A stretch of DNA of 43,198 nt, from UHGV virus genome UHGV-1555466; one strand, 5' to 3'. Origin of the DNA: a virus. The notes below the pieces were generated by a model. The model worked only from the letters and a program-made list of their open reading frames with translations, made no database searches and had not been told where the DNA came from. The position numbers and the translations under genes were made by a program. Shown one piece after another: positions 2,766 to 14,244 of this stretch (position 1 is the stretch's first letter; each line of letters begins with the position of its first letter).

Positions 2766-4156
2766 GCTATACCTCTCTTTTTCATGGCATCGAGCAGGAT
2801 GTCCTGCACTGTTCGTTTTGAGTTGCGCCGCTCCATCACCATTTCATCCATAGTGTCGGCAGCAATAATGTGGTGAATAAATACCGGACGATTGTGTCCG
2901 GCCTGTATCTGCCTGGTGGGGCCGATACGTTCAATAATTTGCTGATATTGCTCCAGGTCCCACCAGTGTGAGAAAAATACCAGTATATTTCCGCCGTCCT
3001 GCATGTTCAGGCCGTGGCCCGCGCTGGCTGGGTGTGCAAAGAGAACAGGAATCTTTCCGGAATTCCAGTCGCGCAGTGTCTGTGGATCCTGGTCGAGGTG
3101 ACGACCGCGAGGGAATGCTTTAAGCAAGCGTTCAAGATCGTGTTTCCAGTGATAAGCAACCAGCACAGGTGCGCCAGCTGCTTCGGTCAGTATGCTGTCC
3201 AGCGCCTGTAGTTTGGTGTCATGCAGTTCTGACCAACTTCCGGTGTCATCTGTGTATACTGCGCCGCTGGCGATTTGCAGACACTTCAGTGTCTTTGCCG
3301 CGGCGTTCGGTGCTTCGATGCCTTCGCCATTCAGCTCGAGGAACATTTCCTTTTCCATTTCACGATACTGCTGACGGGCCTTCGGTGGCATATCCACGCG
3401 GATTACGTTATGGATGGGGTCTTTGATATCGAACCAGTCGGCCGCATCCAGCGAGAGGGTTACATCGGCTAACGCTCGCTGTATTTCACCCTGTGAGTGA
3501 GCAAAAGGCTCCAGTTTGGTCCAGCTCTGCCCCGGAAACTGTATCGAGTTGAACCAGCGTGAGGTAAACGCGCCGTAAGTGCGCCCGAGACGTTGCCCCT
3601 GGTCCACAAACCACGATTGTCCCCACAAATCTACCAGGCCGTTCGGTGCTGGCGTACCGGTGAGATTTATCCAGCGCCGGACATACTTATGCGCCACTTT
3701 GCCCAGCGCCGCCGCGCGCTTACCACCACCGCGCAGCCGGAAGGATTTTAGCCGGGTGCTTTCATCTGGAATGACAGTACCGAACGGCCATCGTTCTCCC
3801 AATTCTTCAATCAGCCAGACAAGGTTATCGTAGTTGATGGTGAACACGCTTGCGTTGCTGTTCGTCAGCGCCATAGAGCGCGCTTTGGCATTACCAATAA
3901 TTGGCTGCACCTCGATATTGCGCAAATGTCCCCACTTCAGTGCTTCATCCGGCCATGTGCTGGCAGCCACGCGCAGCGGCGCGAGGACCAGTGCGGGGCA
4001 TGTTTCTGCCCCTGCCATAAAGAGATCTTCCAGCGCAGTGAGCGTTGCCACGGTTTTACCCATTCCCATCCCCGCCCAGATGTTGCCGCGCAGGGTTTCG
4101 GTTTCGTGGTTGATAATGAGAACTTGGTAGGGGCGAGGTATATATTTTGGGGGCAT
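2762..4156 (-). CDS. SNF2-family helicase (phage replication/recombination)
   Basis: Walker A GMGKT, DEST(DExx) box, LTGTPAPNG motif III, C-terminal helicase domain. Confidence 0.8.
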   Translation of the reverse strand: MPPKYIPRPYQVLIINHETETLRGNIWAGMGMGKTVATLTALEDLFMAGAETCPALVLAPLRVAASTWPDEALKWGHLRNIEVQPIIGNAKARSMALTNSNASVFTINYDNLVWLIEELGERWPFGTVIPDESTRLKSFRLRGGGKRAAALGKVAHKYVRRWINLTGTPAPNGLVDLWGQSWFVDQGQRLGRTYGAFTSRWFNSIQFPGQSWTKLEPFAHSQGEIQRALADVTLSLDAADWFDIKDPIHNVIRVDMPPKARQQYREMEKEMFLELNGEGIEAPNAAAKTLKCLQIASGAVYTDDTGSWSELHDTKLQALDSILTEAAGAPVLVAYHWKHDLERLLKAFPRGRHLDQDPQTLRDWNSGKIPVLFAHPASAGHGLNMQDGGNILVFFSHWWDLEQYQQIIERIGPTRQIQAGHNRPVFIHHIIAADTMDEMVMERRNSKRTVQDILLDAMKKRGIA

Positions 4157-4218
4157 ATAATATGGCTCCTAAACAACAAAAGGCCAATTTAGACCTTTTG
4201 TTGTTTTAAAAATGTTAT

Positions 4219-5136
4219 TTATAATAGTGCTGTTACTATTGCATCTTTAAAAATATTTTCTTCTTCATTTATTAAAGGTGATGACAGATGAATAATTACT
4301 TCTTTTCCTGTCAATACTATTTGCTCGACTTGAAATCCTGCGTTGTGTAGTCTTTGGCGTAACTTTTCTAGTGCTGATTTTGATATACTAAATCCTTCAC
4401 TCCTTATAGTATAACTGGCAACTCCATTTTTAATAATATCTACAGAGTTGTCAATTTCCTGCTGCGAGTAATTTTTCGGTGAGTCGAAAAATCTGGATTT
4501 TGTCGTTGCTGTTGCCCTAAGAGATATCAATAATGATTTGATATCTTTAATCTCAGATGCCAGATACTCAGTTTCTGATACTTCTTTCTGGTCTAGTTGT
4601 GCAACTTTGAAAGTGCCAAAATGTTTGAGGAATGTTGTGTATTCAGGATCAGTTACTGACTTTAAATATGTTTCTTTTATCTTGCTCGCAAGTCTTTCTT
4701 TGAATAAATTGATTGATTGGTATCTTAAATCCGAAGGGTACTCTAAATGTTCAATTGATGAAATGTCAAAGCTATAAGGAGTGCGCTCGTCCTTAATAAT
4801 TACGGTCGGTTTGTCAAATGCGAGACGCATTCCTAATTCAAACATTACATTAGCGTTTCGAGCACTTATATCGCAAACAACTATGGGGTTTTCATAAAGA
4901 TTTTGAACAATTCGTTTTTGTATTACTGCAACATCATCATCTGAACTTACCAAATTTGCCTTGAATCCGGCATCATTTGATGCTTCACAAATAATGTCAT
5001 GAACATTTCTCCAATGTCCAGTGGGATAACCTTCTATGTCCGCAATTGGCATAATAATGCCGCATATATGAGGTGGCATATTTTTGTTGTCTTTTACATC
5101 ATCTTGGTTTATTTCTTTCGTTTGTTGCTTAGCCAT
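4219..5136 (-). CDS. hypothetical protein with N-terminal TIR-like/nucleoside-deoxyribosyltransferase-like flavodoxin-fold domain; AT-rich moron
   Basis: 305 aa; motif IVVCDISARNANVMFELGMRLAFDKPTVII...EYPSD parallels the 253-aa protein at 5866-6627; strongly AT-rich versus neighbours. Confidence 0.5.
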   Translation of the reverse strand: MAKQQTKEINQDDVKDNKNMPPHICGIIMPIADIEGYPTGHWRNVHDIICEASNDAGFKANLVSSDDDVAVIQKRIVQNLYENPIVVCDISARNANVMFELGMRLAFDKPTVIIKDERTPYSFDISSIEHLEYPSDLRYQSINLFKERLASKIKETYLKSVTDPEYTTFLKHFGTFKVAQLDQKEVSETEYLASEIKDIKSLLISLRATATTKSRFFDSPKNYSQQEIDNSVDIIKNGVASYTIRSEGFSISKSALEKLRQRLHNAGFQVEQIVLTGKEVIIHLSSPLINEEENIFKDAIVTALL

Positions 5137-5865: not shown

Positions 5866-6627
5866 TTACGAGGAAGCGTTAGCTATTTGAGCTTGTGTAA
5901 ATTCGAAACCAGAATTTTGTAACCGTTGCACTAGACGAGGAACTGTTTCACGTACATGGTCGTTGAAATTCAGATACAAAATCCCGTTAGCATCAGAAGG
6001 CTGTTCTAGGTGCTGTTTCTGAAGGATTGCTACATTGCTGCGCCCTAAGGACGAAAGAAGCATACCCATCTCGAGTACAACGTTCTGTCTTGCGCGGGGT
6101 TGGATTTCTGCTTCACCGGCGCGCTTTGAGTATCCCATATCATCAGGTGTCAAAAGAACAATCCCGAAACGAGTAGCAGTTTGTCCTTGCCCAATTTCAC
6201 GTTCAAGCTCTTCAATAATGGTGAGTCCAGTCCCTCCCGTATTCTGCAAAATGAAATGGTCTGGTAATCCAAGTTTATGAAGGATTAGCTCAAGTTGTTC
6301 CTTTGCAGTATGGTCATGGCCGTGAACAATGAATATCTTTTTGGGAAGCTCAGATGGCTGTTCTACGGCTAGTGGTGTTGCCGTGGGGGGCGTTCCTAAA
6401 TGGGACATTATTGCAGTTTCAACATTGGGACGTTCTTGAGGGTTCCCTTGAAACTGAATGGTCCGGGTGGTGTAAAGGTTAACAATTACGCCATTCGTTA
6501 AACGATAGCAGTCATAAGTCTCACGCTGTTCGTGGGAAAAATTGGTGAACCCACACTCCCTCAAAAAGTCAGGAAAAGATTCTCTCGGGTATGGATAGTT
6601 GATCGGCATTTCAGTTAGTTCCTGCAT
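5866..6627 (-). CDS. TIR-like domain protein (COG4271/PF10137-like C-terminal domain, unknown N-terminal domain)
   Basis: 253 aa; KKIFIVHGHD...FGIVLLTPDD...RARQNVVLEMGMLLSSLGRSNVAIL...EQPSD; own terminator downstream. Confidence 0.55.
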   Translation of the reverse strand: MQELTEMPINYPYPRESFPDFLRECGFTNFSHEQRETYDCYRLTNGVIVNLYTTRTIQFQGNPQERPNVETAIMSHLGTPPTATPLAVEQPSELPKKIFIVHGHDHTAKEQLELILHKLGLPDHFILQNTGGTGLTIIEELEREIGQGQTATRFGIVLLTPDDMGYSKRAGEAEIQPRARQNVVLEMGMLLSSLGRSNVAILQKQHLEQPSDANGILYLNFNDHVRETVPRLVQRLQNSGFEFTQAQIANASS

Positions 6628-6691: not shown

Positions 6692-8755
6692 TCAATCTTT
6701 TTTGTAGTGGTACGCCTCAAAGCCGCCAGCGTTCAGCGGAATATCGGGTGCCCATTCGGGGTTAGTGGAGAGAAGCGCGGAAAGCGCTTTATCGTTGAAA
6801 TCTTCTGTGTCTGGTGCTTCGGTGATCACCTCGTCGTGTACCGTTAGCACAATGCTGTAACCGGCACCCTCGATCAGCGGCATGTTTCTGGCTAGAACGT
6901 CGCGGGCGGCCGCCTGGGTGACGTTCTCCACCAGCTTTCCGCCGTAGGTTTTGAGTCGTTGCCATTTACGCGAATAAGAGTTAACACCCATGTAGGTGAT
7001 ATTCCCTTGTTCGATAACCGGAGACGGGTAGCATACAGCGCGTCCGGATGGTAGCTGTATGCGCAGCCACGCGCCATCACGTCGGATTTTAAGATAGCCG
7101 CAATACAATGTTTTTTGCGGTGTGGCGATTGCTGTGCGGACAGTGCGCTCCAGCTCGTACCAGAAATCGCAGGTCGCCGGGTGCGCCCTGCGCCACAGGC
7201 GCTTGAGCGAGTCACATGCGATGAATACACGCTCGGACAGGCCAAAGGTCGACTTACGCTTAACCGATTCGTCGTACCAGCTTTTTGCCTCGCGGATAAC
7301 ATCGCGGGGAATGTTTGGCAGTGCGGCGTTCGCCAGCTCGTCGAGATCGAGACCGTAAACCAGAGCAAAAGTGATGAAAGCCGATACACCACCTCCATAA
7401 CCCAGACCGAGTTCCATGACTTTACCGATCTGACGCATGTGTTTATCAACATCATCTGGTGCAATATCGAAAGCTTTTGCATACGCCAGTTTATATAAGT
7501 CCGGACCCGTTCCAGCGTCATACTCTCTGAATGCATTCAGTTTCCATTCTTCTCCCGCCAGCCATGCCAGCATACGGCCTTCAATGTTTGACAAGTCACT
7601 TACCACTAGTTTTTTGCCTGTTGGCGCGATAATGCAGCCACGTAACGCTGAACTGGTTAGTTCCATGATATTGTCAAACAGCAGGTCTGCACATCCGGCT
7701 TTCAGTGCTTCGATGCCTTCGTCTATTTGTTCCTGTTTTAGTGAAGGGCGGGGAAGGTTCTGGGGCTGGAATAGCCGTCCGGCCCAACGACCGGTACGTG
7801 ACGCCCCGCAGAACTGTAGCGTACCGCGTAAGCGCCCGTCGTGGCTTACGCCTTTCATCAGTGCCTTGTATTTACTGGTGCTGGTAGTACTGGCTTGCAG
7901 GCGGATAGCCAGCAGTTCTTTCACGGCAGATGATAAATCGGGGTCGGCCATACGACGTTCCAGGGTACTGCGTTGCATGTCTGGTAGCTCCACACCGTAG
8001 GATTCAACGATGTGCTTAATCAACGCGTCCCGTTGTGTGGCTGCCTGCACTTCGCCATCAGTCATTTCCTGTGTACGCTTTGCCAGGCGCTTTTGCTCCT
8101 GGTCTACCGCTTCGATCGCAGCGCGCGCGAGTTGCATGTCCATGCAGACGCCCCGGTCGTTGATCTGCTGATCACGATGCCAGAGCGCCAGCTCTGTCCC
8201 CTGATAATTCCACTTCGGCAGACGTTTATAGACTTCACGCATTGCTTCGATATCCAGTCCGGCGTAAGCAACAAAGCGCCGCCATTCTTCCGGATGGGTT
8301 TTACTGGTGGCCCGACGCAGTTTGCTGTTTTTCGGACGTGGCTTACAGAACAGCTGGATCAGCGCTTTACCTTCTTTGTCCTTCGCTTTGTCTTGCGGGA
8401 CGCCTAGTACTTCGCAGAGTTCCCCCAGAGACCCCGGGAGACCGTGCGCCAGCGCCTGCACCATCGTGTCGCGCCAACGTTCGACTGGCGGTGCCAGTCG
8501 CGGCATTGCATAACGCAGAACGGTGCGGTCGAAGTGAGAGTTATGGAAATAAAGCAGGGTTTCAGGGTCTGCGATTGCTTCGTATAAGCCGTGTGGAATA
8601 CCACCACCGGCAGTGATATCCCACACGTTTACTGGCCCGTCGTTGATAGCCCATGCGAAAAGCATCACTTCAACGCCTTCGGCATACGCATGGGTACCGT
8701 TCGTAATAGGGATTTCGCAATAGGTTTCCAGGTCGCCCCATAGTATATTGGACAT
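6692..8755 (-). CDS. family A DNA polymerase with N-terminal 3'-5' exonuclease domain
   Basis: 687 aa; motif A DLSNIEGR, motif [13 protein letters not shown], motif C VHDEV. Confidence 0.85.
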
Positions 8756-8801
8756 GTGTTTACCTAGGTTTTTATTCTATTAACTGATTAAAAGATTAAT
8801 T

Positions 8802-9431
8802 ATGCATATGATCCAATACTTGATTGACCATACAGAGCATCTGGAGAAAATAGCTGGATATATTTTTTCATGTTTGATTGTTATGGGAGTCTGGATAAGA
8901 AAGATCATTTTTAATTATAAGTATAAAGAGCCTAAATATGTCAAGAAGTTAATTTTATATTTAATTAAGTATGAACGTTATCTGGATAAGGAGGATAAGA
9001 AAGCCATAGAAAAAAGAATAAATGATAAAATTATTCGTGATGCGCTGAAATTGCAATCCTCTTATAACCGAAGAGATGTTATTTACATTTGCAATAGATT
9101 AGAAAAAAGACAGTATATAAATCAGTTGATTAAGCTTCAGAATTATATAGAGAAAGATAACGGAGTGTTTTTTATTAATGTTGATTTTTCAGGTTTTTTA
9201 TTTATTATTAGTCGTCTGTTTTCCTTTCTGTGTTTTGTGCTGTTTACCCTTTTTTCTATTATCTGCATTATTTCCATAGGGCAAAATGAAGGCCTTTTAA
9301 ATTATCTTGTGTATATGGTTATGATAATAGTTTTAGAGACTGTTGGTTTTTGGATGTATGATACTTTCCCGTCTAAGAAAAAGATCTGTGAACTAAATAA
9401 AGAATTGAGAAAGATTAAGATTCCTGAGTGA
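8802..9431 (+). CDS. hypothetical membrane protein (AT-rich moron, antisense to replication operon)
   Basis: 209 aa, very AT-rich; N-terminal hydrophobic segment and C-terminal transmembrane cluster flanking a Lys/Glu-rich region. Confidence 0.6.
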   Translation: MHMIQYLIDHTEHLEKIAGYIFSCLIVMGVWIRKIIFNYKYKEPKYVKKLILYLIKYERYLDKEDKKAIEKRINDKIIRDALKLQSSYNRRDVIYICNRLEKRQYINQLIKLQNYIEKDNGVFFINVDFSGFLFIISRLFSFLCFVLFTLFSIICIISIGQNEGLLNYLVYMVMIIVLETVGFWMYDTFPSKKKICELNKELRKIKIPE

Positions 9432-9449
9432 TTATACGCCTAATCAGTA

Positions 9450-9468
9450 GCCCGGTGTTTAACCGGGC
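9450..9468. terminator. hairpin between convergent genes (putative bidirectional terminator)
   Basis: gcccgg(9450-9455) / ccgggc(9463-9468), loop tgtttaa; no clean U-run. Confidence 0.35.
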
Positions 9469-9483
9469 GTCTATGAAGTAGGG

Positions 9484-10032
9484 TTAAATTAGTGCTTCAG
9501 CATCAGCACCTTCGCTGATATCGTCGAAATCGTCAGCGCTTGCCACTCCGCCGCCAGCGAATGCATCGCCGTCTCGCAGGAACTGGACTCCGCCGAGTGA
9601 GGCATTAATGCGTTTACCGAAATTATTGTCCTGTGCCCAGATATCGATAACGGCGTTTACATAGCACCCTGCATAAGGACGTCCGTCAGCCTGAATAAGT
9701 GGCGAACGATCGCGATCAAGAACAGCTGGGCGCGCTTTGTTAGCAGCATTCAGGAAGAAATTGCCGGGGAAGCCTTCATACTCTGCTTTTTCATCACCAT
9801 CATGCAGGCACAGATTGAGTTTTTTCTCCAGCTGGTTATAAATGGGCTCCCACTTCTCTCCCCATTTTTCCTTCGCTACCTGCTTCATAGCTTTACGGAT
9901 TTCTTCCAGTTGTGGGTGTTTGGGAGACATTAAAAATACTGCGGAGAAACGCGGATCGCCTTCGCCGTTTACAGTTTTAGCTTCAAACAGAGACGGGAAG
10001 GCCAGACGAACATTGTTCAGCTTCAGTTTCAT
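9484..10032 (-). CDS. DUF2815-family phage single-stranded-DNA-binding-like protein
   Basis: 182 aa; acidic C-terminal tail ADDFDDISEGADAEALI typical of SSBs. Confidence 0.65.
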   Translation of the reverse strand: MKLKLNNVRLAFPSLFEAKTVNGEGDPRFSAVFLMSPKHPQLEEIRKAMKQVAKEKWGEKWEPIYNQLEKKLNLCLHDGDEKAEYEGFPGNFFLNAANKARPAVLDRDRSPLIQADGRPYAGCYVNAVIDIWAQDNNFGKRINASLGGVQFLRDGDAFAGGGVASADDFDDISEGADAEALI

Positions 10033-12624: not shown

Positions 12625-13194
12625 ATGTCTGAAGAAAAAGGAATTCTTTCCCGGATAACTGAATCGTTATCCGGCGTGGGAGGAGCAATTAAAGGCGCGG
12701 TTGGAGCAGCAAGAGAGATTCAGAATCTGACTGTCGACTATGCAGTTAAAGAGAAGACGCACACCTTACTCGATAAGCTAATGGATGTTCAGATGCAGCA
12801 AATGTCGCTTCAGGAGCTGCTGATTGCGGCTAAGGAGAAAATTGTTGAACTGGAAAATGAGAAAGTAAAGCAAGAGAACTGGGCCGCTGAAGCGGCGAGC
12901 TATGAACTTTACCAGCCTATGCGGGGTACTCTGGTCTATCGCAGCAAGCTTTCTGCAGATACTGACCAATCTCCGGTTTATATTTGTCCCAATTGCTACG
13001 AGCAAAAGAGAAAATCTATATTGCAAGCGGAAGGTCTGGTTATTAAGCCAGGCCTTGGGCGAGCCGTTAATATGGTTTGTTCGCACTGTAGGGCTTCCTA
13101 TCTGTTCAACCGAAATGCTTTAGAGGCCAGACTGCCTGCTGAAGATGAAAATCCGGGGAAGGCAATCACGGATTACGATCCTTACAACCAGTAA
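12625..13194 (+). CDS. hypothetical protein, coiled-coil plus C-terminal zinc ribbon (immunity-region moron)
   Basis: 189 aa; heptad-rich middle, CPNC...CSHC; GAGAG RBS; own downstream hairpin. Confidence 0.6.
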   Translation: MSEEKGILSRITESLSGVGGAIKGAVGAAREIQNLTVDYAVKEKTHTLLDKLMDVQMQQMSLQELLIAAKEKIVELENEKVKQENWAAEAASYELYQPMRGTLVYRSKLSADTDQSPVYICPNCYEQKRKSILQAEGLVIKPGLGRAVNMVCSHCRASYLFNRNALEARLPAEDENPGKAITDYDPYNQ

Positions 13195-13569: not shown

Positions 13570-14244
13570 TTAGTACATGCGTAGCGCGGATTTGGCGATC
13601 CCCGCCACGTAATGGATTTTTTCAATGTTTTCGCGTGGTACTCTGACTGGTGGATGATCTTCATTTACAGACATTAGATGGAACAGGCCATCGCGTTCGA
13701 ACAAGAAGGTTTTAACCATGACCTCACCGTCCCGGGTAACCACAAGTACTTCATCACCAGGAGTGTAGTCGTGGTTGGGTTCGACGATTACGAACTCACC
13801 CTCTTTGATTCTAGGCATCATTGAATCACCAACACATTTCAGGGCGTATGCATCTTCATCCTTTGTCGGCCAGTATATGAAACCATCACTGCTACCTACT
13901 GAATATTGGGTGTCGCTCCAAAGTCCTCCAACGCCTAGCTGAGTGTTTCCCAAAACAGGTACTTTATTAAACCTAAGAGAAATATACGTTTTTATACCCG
14001 TCGCGTCCTCTTTCTCCATTTCTTGAAGGCTCCTTTCTGCCAGGTCTATTGGTGACACGTGGAAGTAGTCGGCGATCTGCTTTAACGTTGCGTATTTCGG
14101 ATCTTTCACCTCTCCTGATACCAGCCTGTGTAGCGTTGGTTGGTTCAGTTGTAACCGACGTGCCAGCTCAGTTATCGAGCTTATCTTGGCTTTGTCCATC
14201 AGGTACTTGATGTTTTGAGAAAGGATATCGGTAGTATCAATCAT
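13570..14244 (-). CDS. CI-like repressor (HTH plus S24 LexA-type peptidase domain)
   Basis: 224 aa; N-terminal HTH; C-terminal GDSM and downstream Lys characteristic of autocleaving repressors. Confidence 0.85.
   Translation of the reverse strand: MIDTTDILSQNIKYLMDKAKISSITELARRLQLNQPTLHRLVSGEVKDPKYATLKQIADYFHVSPIDLAERSLQEMEKEDATGIKTYISLRFNKVPVLGNTQLGVGGLWSDTQYSVGSSDGFIYWPTKDEDAYALKCVGDSMMPRIKEGEFVIVEPNHDYTPGDEVLVVTRDGEVMVKTFLFERDGLFHLMSVNEDHPPVRVPRENIEKIHYVAGIAKSALRMY

What the first reader, a model, noticed from the sequence alone, without database searches (positions are those of the whole stretch)
8802..9431. Lone AT-rich membrane-protein gene antisense to the replication operon
A 209-aa protein with an N-terminal hydrophobic segment, a Lys/Glu-rich middle and a C-terminal cluster of transmembrane helices is encoded on the plus strand between PolA and the SSB-like gene, both minus-strand. 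Its GC content is far below the flanks and a hairpin follows (9450-9468). This is the signature of an independently expressed moron; membrane proteins here are often superinfection-exclusion or abortive-infection factors.
Basis: partly seen in the sequence, partly recalled or inferred. Interest (0 to 1): 0.6.

Follow-up and report, generated by a model that had tools for sequence, protein, structure and literature searches.

The report
Orphan membrane gene in prophage hotspot
A real but uncharacterised three-pass inner-membrane protein gene sits as swappable, AT-rich cargo between the DNA polymerase and ssDNA-binding genes of an E. coli prophage. Relatives sit in the accessory-gene slots of other mobile elements, so it is a good but untested candidate for a new single-gene phage-exclusion factor.

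Summary
ORF 8802..9431 (+) encodes 209 aa, is the lowest-GC stretch of the window (0.287 vs 0.49), and lies antisense between family-A DNA polymerase and an Enc34-type ssDNA-binding gene.

It is exchangeable cargo. The backbone occurs in 159 of 5,426 complete E. coli genomes, and homology breaks exactly at the polymerase start codon. The slot holds this gene (67 genomes), a 199-aa protein (13), or unrelated genes. The 199-aa protein is a very distant homologue (hhalign 98%, 18% identity).

The family is tiny: 10 hits among 1.8 billion representatives. Members are always solitary, and AT-rich in the 10 loci measured. They sit in other accessory slots: the P2 orf30 locus, upstream of lambdoid Q, next to a TraG_N conjugation gene, and in a Serratia island beside Septu-like and type I R-M genes.

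Charge distribution predicts N-out/C-in with three TM helices, a basic ~95-aa cytoplasmic domain, and a conserved cytoplasmic motif.

There is no Pfam, NCBIfam, PADLOC or fold match, and no detectable homology to SieA, SieB or P2 Orf30.

The "moron" reading is supported. An exclusion or abortive-infection function is plausible from context only. The hairpin belongs to the backbone and lacks a U-tract.

The parts
8756..9449 (+). Exchangeable cargo cassette in the polymerase|ssDNA-binding-gene slot
   Evidence: Alignments of sister prophages lose homology exactly after the polymerase start codon (8753-8755) and regain it around 9445-9480. Slot content differs among 159 E. coli genomes.
8802..9431 (+). 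CDS, 209 aa; orphan family (PHROG 10579, unknown function)
   Evidence: Start at M1/M3 rather than M28: residues 1-27 (Y-x-x-[DE]-H-x-E...) are conserved in homologues at 26-43% identity, although the PHROG profile starts at residue 28.
8756..8801 (.). 46-bp AT-rich (GC 0.22) divergent intergenic region. It must hold the polymerase RBS (minus strand) and the start signals of the plus-strand gene.
   Evidence: The only promoter-like match is TGGACA(8749)-18-TATTCT(8778), 9/12, and the number of promoter-like matches in the scanned region (5) is not above the shuffle expectation of 3.4.
8850..8912 (+). TM1 (aa ~17-37), preceded by an acidic 16-aa N-tail predicted periplasmic
   Evidence: Hydropathy, helix 11-37 in the AF2 model, charge distribution across 17 family members.
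8913..9191 (+). Basic cytoplasmic domain (aa 38-130): four helices plus a beta-hairpin
   Evidence: 22-23 K+R vs 13 D+E. AF2 model with alignment: pLDDT 78; H44-56, H63-82, H90-99, H104-111, E116-125.
9192..9365 (+). C-terminal helical hairpin TM2 (aa 131-160) and TM3 (aa 165-188), with a 4-5-residue periplasmic turn. R138 and membrane-embedded E179 are invariant in the four closest members (alignment A7).
9369..9413 (+). Most conserved motif of the family, cytoplasmic, just after TM3: P190-x4-I195-x3-N199-x-E-L202-x-K204
   Evidence: N199 and L202 are invariant; I195 and K204 are >=90% conserved across 17 sequences that include the 18%-identical 199-aa clade.
9450..9468 (.). GC-rich hairpin between the two convergent genes; backbone feature, no U-tract
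6692..8755 (-). Family-A DNA polymerase (left flank, backbone)
   Evidence: PF00476, E 2.4e-14; annotation.
9484..10032 (-). Enc34-type ssDNA-binding protein, DUF2815 (right flank, backbone)
   Evidence: PF10991, E 7.6e-44.

Best explanation
The gene is horizontally mobile, single-gene accessory cargo (a moron) of a temperate E. coli myovirus. It encodes a three-pass inner-membrane protein with the N-terminus out and the C-terminus in. Almost all of its mass is in the membrane and the cytoplasm.

My favoured mechanism is as follows. The protein is made from the repressed prophage. There it is free of the convergent early-operon transcription that would oppose it during lytic growth. It protects the lysogen against other phages at the inner membrane, most likely by interfering with genome entry. 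This would be functionally analogous to P22 SieA, which is also a 3-TM inner-membrane protein with a conserved cytoplasmic motif after its last helix.

The extreme divergence of the two alleles found in the same slot (18% identity) would then reflect changing target specificity or simply long independent history.

Shown: coding status, cargo behaviour, composition, family limits, predicted topology, and absence of homology to known families.
Inferred: expression in lysogens, anti-phage function, and the step that is blocked.

Approximate probabilities: mobile accessory cargo 0.9; some anti-phage or anti-mobile-element function 0.5; specifically an entry block rather than abortive infection 0.3.
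For: Cargo behaviour.
- 159 of 5,426 complete E. coli genomes carry the backbone.
- 67 carry this gene, 13 carry a 199-aa homologue, and the rest carry Nmad5, BRO-N, an 89-aa 2-TM protein or a 229-aa protein in the same slot.
- Junctions are exact.
- GC is 0.287, the lowest in the window.

One family, many slots.
- hhalign of the 209-type against the 199-type profile gives probability 98.2%, E 6e-14, over 190 columns.
- Homologues are lone genes, and in the 10 loci measured the gene GC (0.28-0.40) is below the surrounding GC (0.41-0.54).
- P2-like prophages: between gpS and gpV. The literature names this orf30 locus as a horizontal-acquisition site (PMC3091744).
- Lambdoid prophage: upstream of antiterminator Q, two genes from a dGTPase defence gene.
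- Antisense between a PAPS-reductase gene and RecT.
- At a prophage end.
- Beside a TraG_N conjugation gene.
- In a Serratia integrase island adjacent to Septu-like PtuA/PtuB and a type I R-M specificity gene.
- No partner gene is conserved across these contexts, which implies autonomous function.

Retention. The gene is intact in ETEC H10407, where the adjacent polymerase is frameshifted. All 12 alleles examined are intact, with dN/dS about 0.25-0.4.

Topology. Charge counts fit the positive-inside rule in the 209-218-aa members and, with alignment-derived boundaries, broadly in the rest. The AF2 model has pLDDT 78.

Analogy. P22 sieB is a ~190-aa gene lying antisense in the early-left operon with its own promoter. 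P22 sieA is a low-GC (0.34), opposite-strand gene for a 3-TM inner-membrane protein. SieA comes in types that are <30% identical, and its best-conserved motif is cytoplasmic.
Against: - No similarity to any Pfam, NCBIfam or PADLOC model at meaningful E-values.
- hhalign probability <1% against SieA type A, SieA type B, SieB and P2 Orf30.
- No promoter or terminator above chance.
- DNA this AT-rich is, from general knowledge, typically H-NS-silenced in E. coli, so expression in lysogens is not assured.
- Periplasmic exposure is minimal (16-aa N-tail, 4-5-aa loop). This fits a cytoplasmic sensor-effector as well as an entry blocker.
- Guilt by association rests on a handful of loci.
- No paper or dataset mentions the protein.
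Confidence: 0.45

Rival explanations
1. Abortive-infection effector. The basic cytoplasmic domain senses a phage product. The TM2-TM3 hairpin, with its conserved membrane-embedded Glu and juxtamembrane Arg, then oligomerises into a pore or ion leak that kills or arrests the infected cell.
Confidence: 0.2
2. Accessory membrane protein with a non-defence role. Examples: lysogenic conversion of envelope physiology, entry exclusion against conjugative elements, or a niche-fitness factor.
For: One homologue lies near a TraG_N conjugation gene. One member gives a weak Pfam TraS hit at E 0.1. Morons commonly encode host-fitness factors (PMC3594210, listed).
Against: Most members are in prophages rather than conjugative elements. 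In the TraG_N locus the gene is upstream and on the opposite strand, not in the traS/eex position. The TraS hit is not significant.
Confidence: 0.15
3. It serves the phage's own lytic cycle, for example by anchoring replication to the membrane or by tuning lysis timing.
For: It is embedded in the replication module. There is a weak PHROG holin hit at E 0.37.
Against: It is replaced by unrelated genes in about half of otherwise near-identical prophages. It occurs in tail operons and non-phage islands elsewhere. It is antisense to the replication operon. The window has its own lambda-family holin and endolysin.
Confidence: 0.08
4. Selfish or decaying AT-rich insert with no current function.
For: Narrow distribution (10 hits in 1.8 billion representatives). 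No recognisable signals. A few truncated copies exist (P0002, P0003, P0022).
Against: The full-length ORF is maintained across 18-44% identity, with conserved motifs and topology. dN/dS is below 1 between the main alleles. It is retained where the neighbouring polymerase is broken.
Confidence: 0.07

Closest known systems
P22 SieA (superinfection exclusion protein A, Pfam PF26849; Leavitt et al. 2024, PMC10883804)
   Same: Both are small (164-212 aa) prophage-encoded inner-membrane proteins with three predicted TM helices: one N-terminal and a C-terminal cluster. In both, the best-conserved motif is cytoplasmic and lies just after the last helix. Both are low-GC, lone, opposite-strand genes. 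Both families have types that are <30% identical at the same locus.
   Different: No detectable homology: hhalign probability 0.2-0.3% to types A and B, and no precomputed PF26849 hit. The motif differs (P-x4-I-x3-N-x-E-L-x-K vs FxRYPxEAxxFNK). The cytoplasmic loop is about 95 aa instead of about 50. SieA is confined to P22-like prophages between genes 16 and 9, whereas this family roams among many element types.
P22/lambda SieB (Pfam PF14163)
   Same: A ~190-aa gene lying antisense inside an early operon of a temperate phage and annotated with its own promoter. It has an N-terminal hydrophobic helix and an in-frame internal start (esc). The window ORF also has an in-frame ATG, at codon 28.
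   Different: No sequence similarity. SieB has one strong hydrophobic segment rather than three. There is no evidence that the internal start is used here.
P2 Orf30 and the P2 orf30 acquisition locus
   Same: A homologue at 38% identity occupies exactly the gpS|gpV slot of P2-like prophages. P2 Orf30 is likewise a non-essential protein with several hydrophobic, TM-like segments visible in its translation.
   Different: Orf30 is 261 aa and unrelated in sequence (hhalign probability 0.8%). Its function is also unknown.
PADLOC candidate PDC-S47
   Same: One family member (P0010) matches it over TM1 plus the first half of the cytoplasmic domain (E 4e-4, 17.9 bits).
   Different: The other 16 members, including the window protein, do not match. 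PDC-S47 is itself an unvalidated candidate, and no paper mentions it.
CorA/MRS2-type channels (structural resemblance only)
   Different: The match is non-specific (thousands of helical hits). There is no GMN motif and no sequence similarity. The extra N-terminal TM helix is absent from CorA (general knowledge).

Membership tests
Moron / hotspot cargo (Hendrix-type definition) | Present in some genomes and absent or replaced in close relatives, at a precise junction | tested here: met
   67 of 159 backbone-bearing E. coli genomes carry it. Others carry a 199-aa homologue, Nmad5, BRO-N, or 89-aa or 229-aa genes. Homology breaks at the polymerase ATG.
Moron / hotspot cargo (Hendrix-type definition) | Nucleotide composition distinct from the surrounding genome | tested here: met
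   GC 0.287 and GC3 0.32, against 0.45-0.59 GC3 in neighbouring genes. It is the lowest-GC stretch of the window. The same holds in the homologous loci measured.
Moron / hotspot cargo (Hendrix-type definition) | Own promoter and terminator (autonomous transcription unit) | tested here: inconclusive
   The antisense orientation requires its own promoter. However, only a 9/12 sigma-70 match was found, and the number of such matches in the scanned region is not above the shuffle expectation. No intrinsic terminator was found, and the hairpin lacks a U-tract and is shared with the backbone.
SieA (PF26849) | Sequence/profile similarity to SieA types A or B | tested here: not met
   hhalign probability 0.2-0.3%. 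The precomputed Pfam field is empty for the protein cluster.
SieA (PF26849) | Conserved cytoplasmic motif FxRYPxEAxxFNK after the last TM helix | tested here: not met
   This family has P-x4-I-x3-N-x-E-L-x-K at that position. The placement is similar, but the sequence and spacing differ.
SieA (PF26849) | Three-TM inner-membrane protein | tested here: met
   Three hydrophobic helices and a charge distribution that fits the positive-inside rule. This is prediction only; there is no fractionation.
SieA (PF26849) | Blocks DNA delivery by superinfecting phage | not testable with these tools
   Needs plating, potassium-efflux and DNA-entry assays.
SieB (PF14163) | Match to the SieB profile | tested here: not met
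   P22 SieB matches PF14163 at 4e-29. The window protein has no hit at E<=10, and hhalign probability is 0.1%.
Known or candidate defence systems in PADLOC 2.0 | Match to any of 5,027 models | tested here: not met
   Zero hits for the window protein. Only one distant member hits PDC-S47, weakly.
Holins | Match to a holin family, and position in a lysis cassette | tested here: not met
   The best hits are PHROG holin at E 0.37 and Pfam holin at E 0.25 in 2 of 17 members. The lysis cassette is elsewhere in the prophage.
PHROG 10579 (unknown function) | Profile match | tested here: met
   E 7e-107 over residues 28-209. The family has no annotation.

The most novel reading that the evidence does not exclude
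This is the founding member of a previously unrecognised single-gene family of membrane-embedded anti-phage proteins. Its fold has no solved or viral-predicted neighbour. The family hops between the accessory hotspots of at least five architecturally different mobile elements: a polymerase-encoding myovirus prophage, P2-like prophages, lambdoid prophages, a conjugative element and a defence island. It diversifies so fast that two alleles in the same slot share only 18% identity.
Probability: 0.4. Interest if true: 0.55.

Novelty: new member of a known kind. Interest (0 to 1): 0.4.

Why it matters
If the protein does exclude phages, it would add a compact (630-bp), partner-independent membrane defence gene to the E. 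coli repertoire. Current defence-finders miss it: it has no PADLOC, Pfam or NCBIfam model.

The analysis also marks two slots flanking the prophage polymerase gene as cargo hotspots that could be mined. The first holds this family and three other plus-strand cargo types. The second holds a PDC-S35-type TIR protein and alternatives.

The pair of 18%-identical alleles in one slot is a natural experiment for specificity determinants.

If the gene has no phenotype, it remains an ordinary hypothetical moron.

Tried and rejected
Searches that gave nothing useful:
- Pfam, PHROG, PADLOC and NCBIfam scans of the window protein and of 17 family members. These gave only PHROG 10579 (unknown function) and sub-threshold noise from TM segments (DUF2207_C, FA_desaturase, TraS at E 0.1, SLATT-containing DRT model at E 0.085).
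- A PDB sequence-profile search returned only E>1 hits.
- The afdb50 library was not available.
- tblastn found only the three near-identical phage records and no plasmid hits.
- Promoter and terminator scans of the window and four homologous loci were at or below the shuffle expectation.
- Literature searches for accessions, phage names, PHROG and PDC identifiers returned nothing.

Hypotheses tested and rejected:
- Homology to SieA types A and B, SieB and P2 Orf30.
- A two-gene system with the nearby TIR protein. The two genes assort independently among genomes.
- M28 as the true start. The N-terminal 27 residues are conserved in distant homologues.
- The hairpin as this gene's own terminator. 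It is shared with a minus-strand cassette and has no U-tract.

Technical note: the search for related loci with the broad alignment failed because it had no conserved stretch. A narrower alignment worked.

Full report
**1. Observation**

In DNA of this composition a stop is expected every 11-12 codons. The chance of 209 open codons is therefore about 6e-9, and the other five frames of the same stretch carry 8-26 stops.

GC is 0.287 (GC3 0.32), against 0.541 for the polymerase gene on the left and 0.492 for the gene on the right. It is the lowest-GC 600-bp stretch in the whole 43-kb window.

The flanks are as described:
- 6692..8755 (-) is a family-A DNA polymerase (PF00476).
- 9484..10032 (-) is an Enc34-type ssDNA-binding protein (PF10991, DUF2815).
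- Next to it lies a DUF2800/PD-(D/E)XK protein.

The protein has these segments:
- a moderately hydrophobic helix at about residues 17-37;
- a region from 38 to 128 with 22 Lys/Arg and 13 Asp/Glu;
- two strongly hydrophobic helices at about 131-160 and 165-188;
- a basic tail.

The hairpin at 9450-9468 is real, with a 7-bp stem and a 5-nt loop. The 66-nt region folds at -21.2 kcal/mol, z = -2.9.

**2. What the window is**

The window is essentially identical to Escherichia phages vB_EcoM-606R2, -611R5 and -689R2. It also occurs as a prophage next to yfhL in E. coli chromosomes. The prophage has an integrase, an SNF2 helicase, a polymerase, a CI-like repressor, a primase-type gene, Q, a lysis cassette and myovirus structural genes.

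**3. The gene is exchangeable cargo in a hotspot**

A 2.5-kb query spanning the slot finds the backbone in 159 of 5,426 complete E. coli genomes. Only 67 of these contain the 209-aa gene. In the others the flanks are 96-99% identical and the interval holds one of the following:
- a plus-strand 199-aa gene (13 genomes);
- an 89-aa two-TM plus-strand gene with a minus-strand Nmad5 gene;
- a 229-aa plus-strand gene with Nmad5;
- a minus-strand BRO-N gene.

Alignment of the junctions shows that homology stops exactly at the polymerase start codon (8753-8755), so each cassette supplies the polymerase's ribosome-binding region. Homology resumes around 9445-9480.

The hairpin and the sequence to its right are shared with the BRO-N cassette, where the cargo is on the minus strand. 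A similar hairpin occurs in the Nmad5 cassettes, and none occurs in the 199-aa cassette. With no U-tract on either strand and no terminator call, the hairpin is best read as a backbone element downstream of the ssDNA-binding gene. It is not this gene's own terminator.

**4. The family**

The word-indexed search of 5.8 billion proteins found only the protein's own 90% cluster and fragments of it. The exhaustive HMMER scan of 1.84 billion representatives found 10 proteins. Full-length relatives at 23-44% identity are 209-218 aa, with one of 261 aa.

The 199-aa protein that occupies the same slot in other E. coli, Klebsiella aerogenes and Enterobacter prophages is a very distant member of the same family. 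Profile-profile probability is 98.2%, E 6e-14, over 190 aligned columns at 18% identity.

About half of all backbone-bearing E. coli genomes (80 of 159) therefore carry one of two extremely divergent alleles of this family in this slot.

Residues 1-27 are conserved in the distant homologues (Y-x-x-[DE]-H-x-E-x-L-x-K). The long ORF is therefore the real one, even though the PHROG profile begins at Met28.

All 12 E. coli/IMG-VR copies inspected are intact, and dN/dS between the two main alleles is about 0.25-0.4 on few substitutions. In ETEC H10407 the gene is intact although the adjacent polymerase gene is frameshifted.

**5. Where relatives live**

Every homologue examined is a solitary gene, and no partner gene recurs. 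In the 10 loci where composition was measured, the gene's GC (0.28-0.40) is below that of its surroundings (0.41-0.54).

| Context | Calls |
|---|---|
| gpS\|gpV interval of P2-like prophages | 34; same ORF layout in 74; four IMG/VR contigs at 38% identity in 72, contexts not examined |
| Lambdoid prophage just upstream of antiterminator Q, two genes from a dGTPase defence gene (PADLOC E 5e-144) and near a methylase/HNH pair | 35, 76 |
| Antisense between a PAPS-reductase gene and RecT | 37 |
| End of a prophage, after tail-fibre assembly and lectin genes | 36 |
| Beside DUF1367 and an integrase | 32 |
| An 87-kb contig next to a TraG_N conjugation gene | 31 |
| Integrase-bounded island of Serratia sp. 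Ag1, directly beside a Septu-like PtuA/PtuB pair and a type I R-M specificity gene | 71, 73, 75, 76 |

The gpS|gpV interval is the orf30 locus. The literature lists it as one of three sites where P2-like phages carry horizontally acquired genes (PMC3091744).

This is the behaviour expected of an autonomous accessory gene, and several of the neighbourhoods are defence-rich. It is still guilt by association from a small number of loci.

**6. Topology and structure**

Across the 17 aligned members the regions have these charges:
- The N-tail is short and in most members net acidic.
- The loop between TM1 and TM2 is 95-100 residues and net basic (+4 to +12).
- The TM2-TM3 turn is 2-9 residues.
- The C-tail is basic in most members.

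By the positive-inside rule this gives N-out/C-in with three TM helices and almost no periplasmic exposure.

AlphaFold2 with the family alignment gives pLDDT 78 and pTM 0.55. It predicts four cytoplasmic helices, a beta-hairpin (116-125), a long helix running into TM2, then TM3 and a C-terminal amphipathic helix. The single-sequence model was poor.

The most conserved part of the family is the cytoplasmic stretch after TM3: P190-x4-I195-x3-N199-x-E-L202-x-K204, with N199 and L202 invariant. R138 and the membrane-embedded E179 are invariant in the four closest members.

**7. Comparison with known systems**

No Pfam, NCBIfam or PADLOC model matches the window protein. Across the family only one member weakly hits the unvalidated PADLOC candidate PDC-S47 (E 4e-4).

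I extracted P22 SieA and SieB, E. coli HS SieA type B and P2 Orf30 from public records and compared them with the family profile. All give hhalign probabilities below 1%. The gene is therefore not a member of those families.

The functional analogy is nevertheless close:
- **SieA.** It is a low-GC, opposite-strand, 3-TM inner-membrane protein. Its types are <30% identical, and its best-conserved motif is cytoplasmic and follows the last helix.
- **SieB.** It is a ~190-aa gene antisense within the early-left operon, with its own promoter and an internal start.

**8. Mechanism**

What is shown: a real, mobile, compositionally foreign, solitary gene for a predicted three-pass inner-membrane protein of an orphan family.

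What is inferred is the following. In the lysogen the minus-strand replication operon is repressed, so the plus-strand gene can be expressed unopposed. After induction, convergent transcription would counteract it.

I favour protection of the lysogen against other phages at the inner membrane, most likely at genome entry (about 0.3). An abortive membrane-permeabilising effector is the main rival (about 0.2). Non-defence accessory roles, a role in the phage's own cycle, and no function at all remain possible.

Points against any strong claim:
- No promoter is above chance.
- H-NS silencing of such AT-rich DNA is likely (general knowledge).
- There is no expression or phenotype record.

**9. Relation to the neighbouring TIR gene**

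The 253-aa CAP12/Pycsar-type TIR protein at 5866..6627 matches PADLOC PDC-S35 at E 1e-108. It lies in a second variable slot on the other side of the polymerase.

It assorts independently of the 209-aa gene. Genomes exist with both, with either alone, or with other cargo there (Bro-N, Ant, a SAM-methyltransferase, a different TIR protein). The two genes are not a two-gene system.

**10. Verdict**

The moron interpretation is supported and sharpened: this is a defined hotspot with alternative cargo, including a deeply divergent allele of the same family. The exclusion or abortive function remains a reasonable but untested hypothesis.

In kind this is a familiar thing, a prophage moron encoding a membrane protein. 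The protein family itself is uncharacterised and invisible to current defence-finders. Interest is moderate.

Noticed in passing
window 5866..6627 (-): A 253-aa CAP12/Pycsar-type TIR-domain protein (PF10137, E 3e-31) that matches the PADLOC single-gene candidate PDC-S35 at E 1e-108. It occupies a second variable slot between the polymerase and the ANR-family regulator. In other genomes that slot holds Bro-N, Ant, a SAM-methyltransferase, a different TIR protein, or nothing. It assorts independently of the 209-aa gene.
   Followed up: partly
window 4219..5136 (-): A 305-aa hypothetical protein between the SNF2 helicase and the VRR-NUC gene. It is the second most AT-rich stretch of the window (GC about 0.33 at 4100-4800). 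It has no Pfam hit and a weak PADLOC TIR-effector hit at E 1e-6.
   Followed up: partly
window 12625..13194 (+): Another lone plus-strand gene (189 aa, no Pfam or PADLOC hit). It lies between the start of the minus-strand early operon and the CI-like repressor (13570..14244), the position where lambda and P22 carry rex/sieB-type genes. It is conserved in the Klebsiella aerogenes prophage at L010 9789..10358.
   Followed up: partly
window 8753..8801 and sister loci L002-L004, L010: Homology between cassettes ends exactly at the polymerase start codon, so each cargo cassette brings a different ribosome-binding region for the polymerase gene. The backbone hexamer TGGACA, which overlaps the polymerase's first codons, could serve as a shared -35 element for the plus-strand cargo genes. 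This is speculative.
   Followed up: no
L017 (E. coli ETEC H10407, NC_017633 2985408-2988119): The prophage polymerase gene is annotated as frameshifted, while the adjacent 209-aa gene is intact.
   Followed up: no
L020 6805..11592 (Serratia sp. Ag1): An integrase-bounded island holds a DUF6338 membrane protein, the family homologue, a Septu-like pair (PtuA E 8e-31; PtuB/PDC-M01B E 1e-13) and a type I R-M specificity subunit.
   Followed up: partly
L003 1413..1682 (+) and L004 1418..2107 (+): Two alternative plus-strand cargo genes of the same slot: an 89-aa protein with two hydrophobic helices, and a 229-aa soluble protein with a Gly/Ser linker. Neither has a Pfam or PADLOC hit.
   Followed up: partly
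L039 440..1225 (-) (phage P2 orf30): P2 Orf30 is non-essential and of unknown function. Its translation shows hydrophobic, TM-like segments near both ends and in the middle. It is encoded antisense between the S and V operons.
   Followed up: partly
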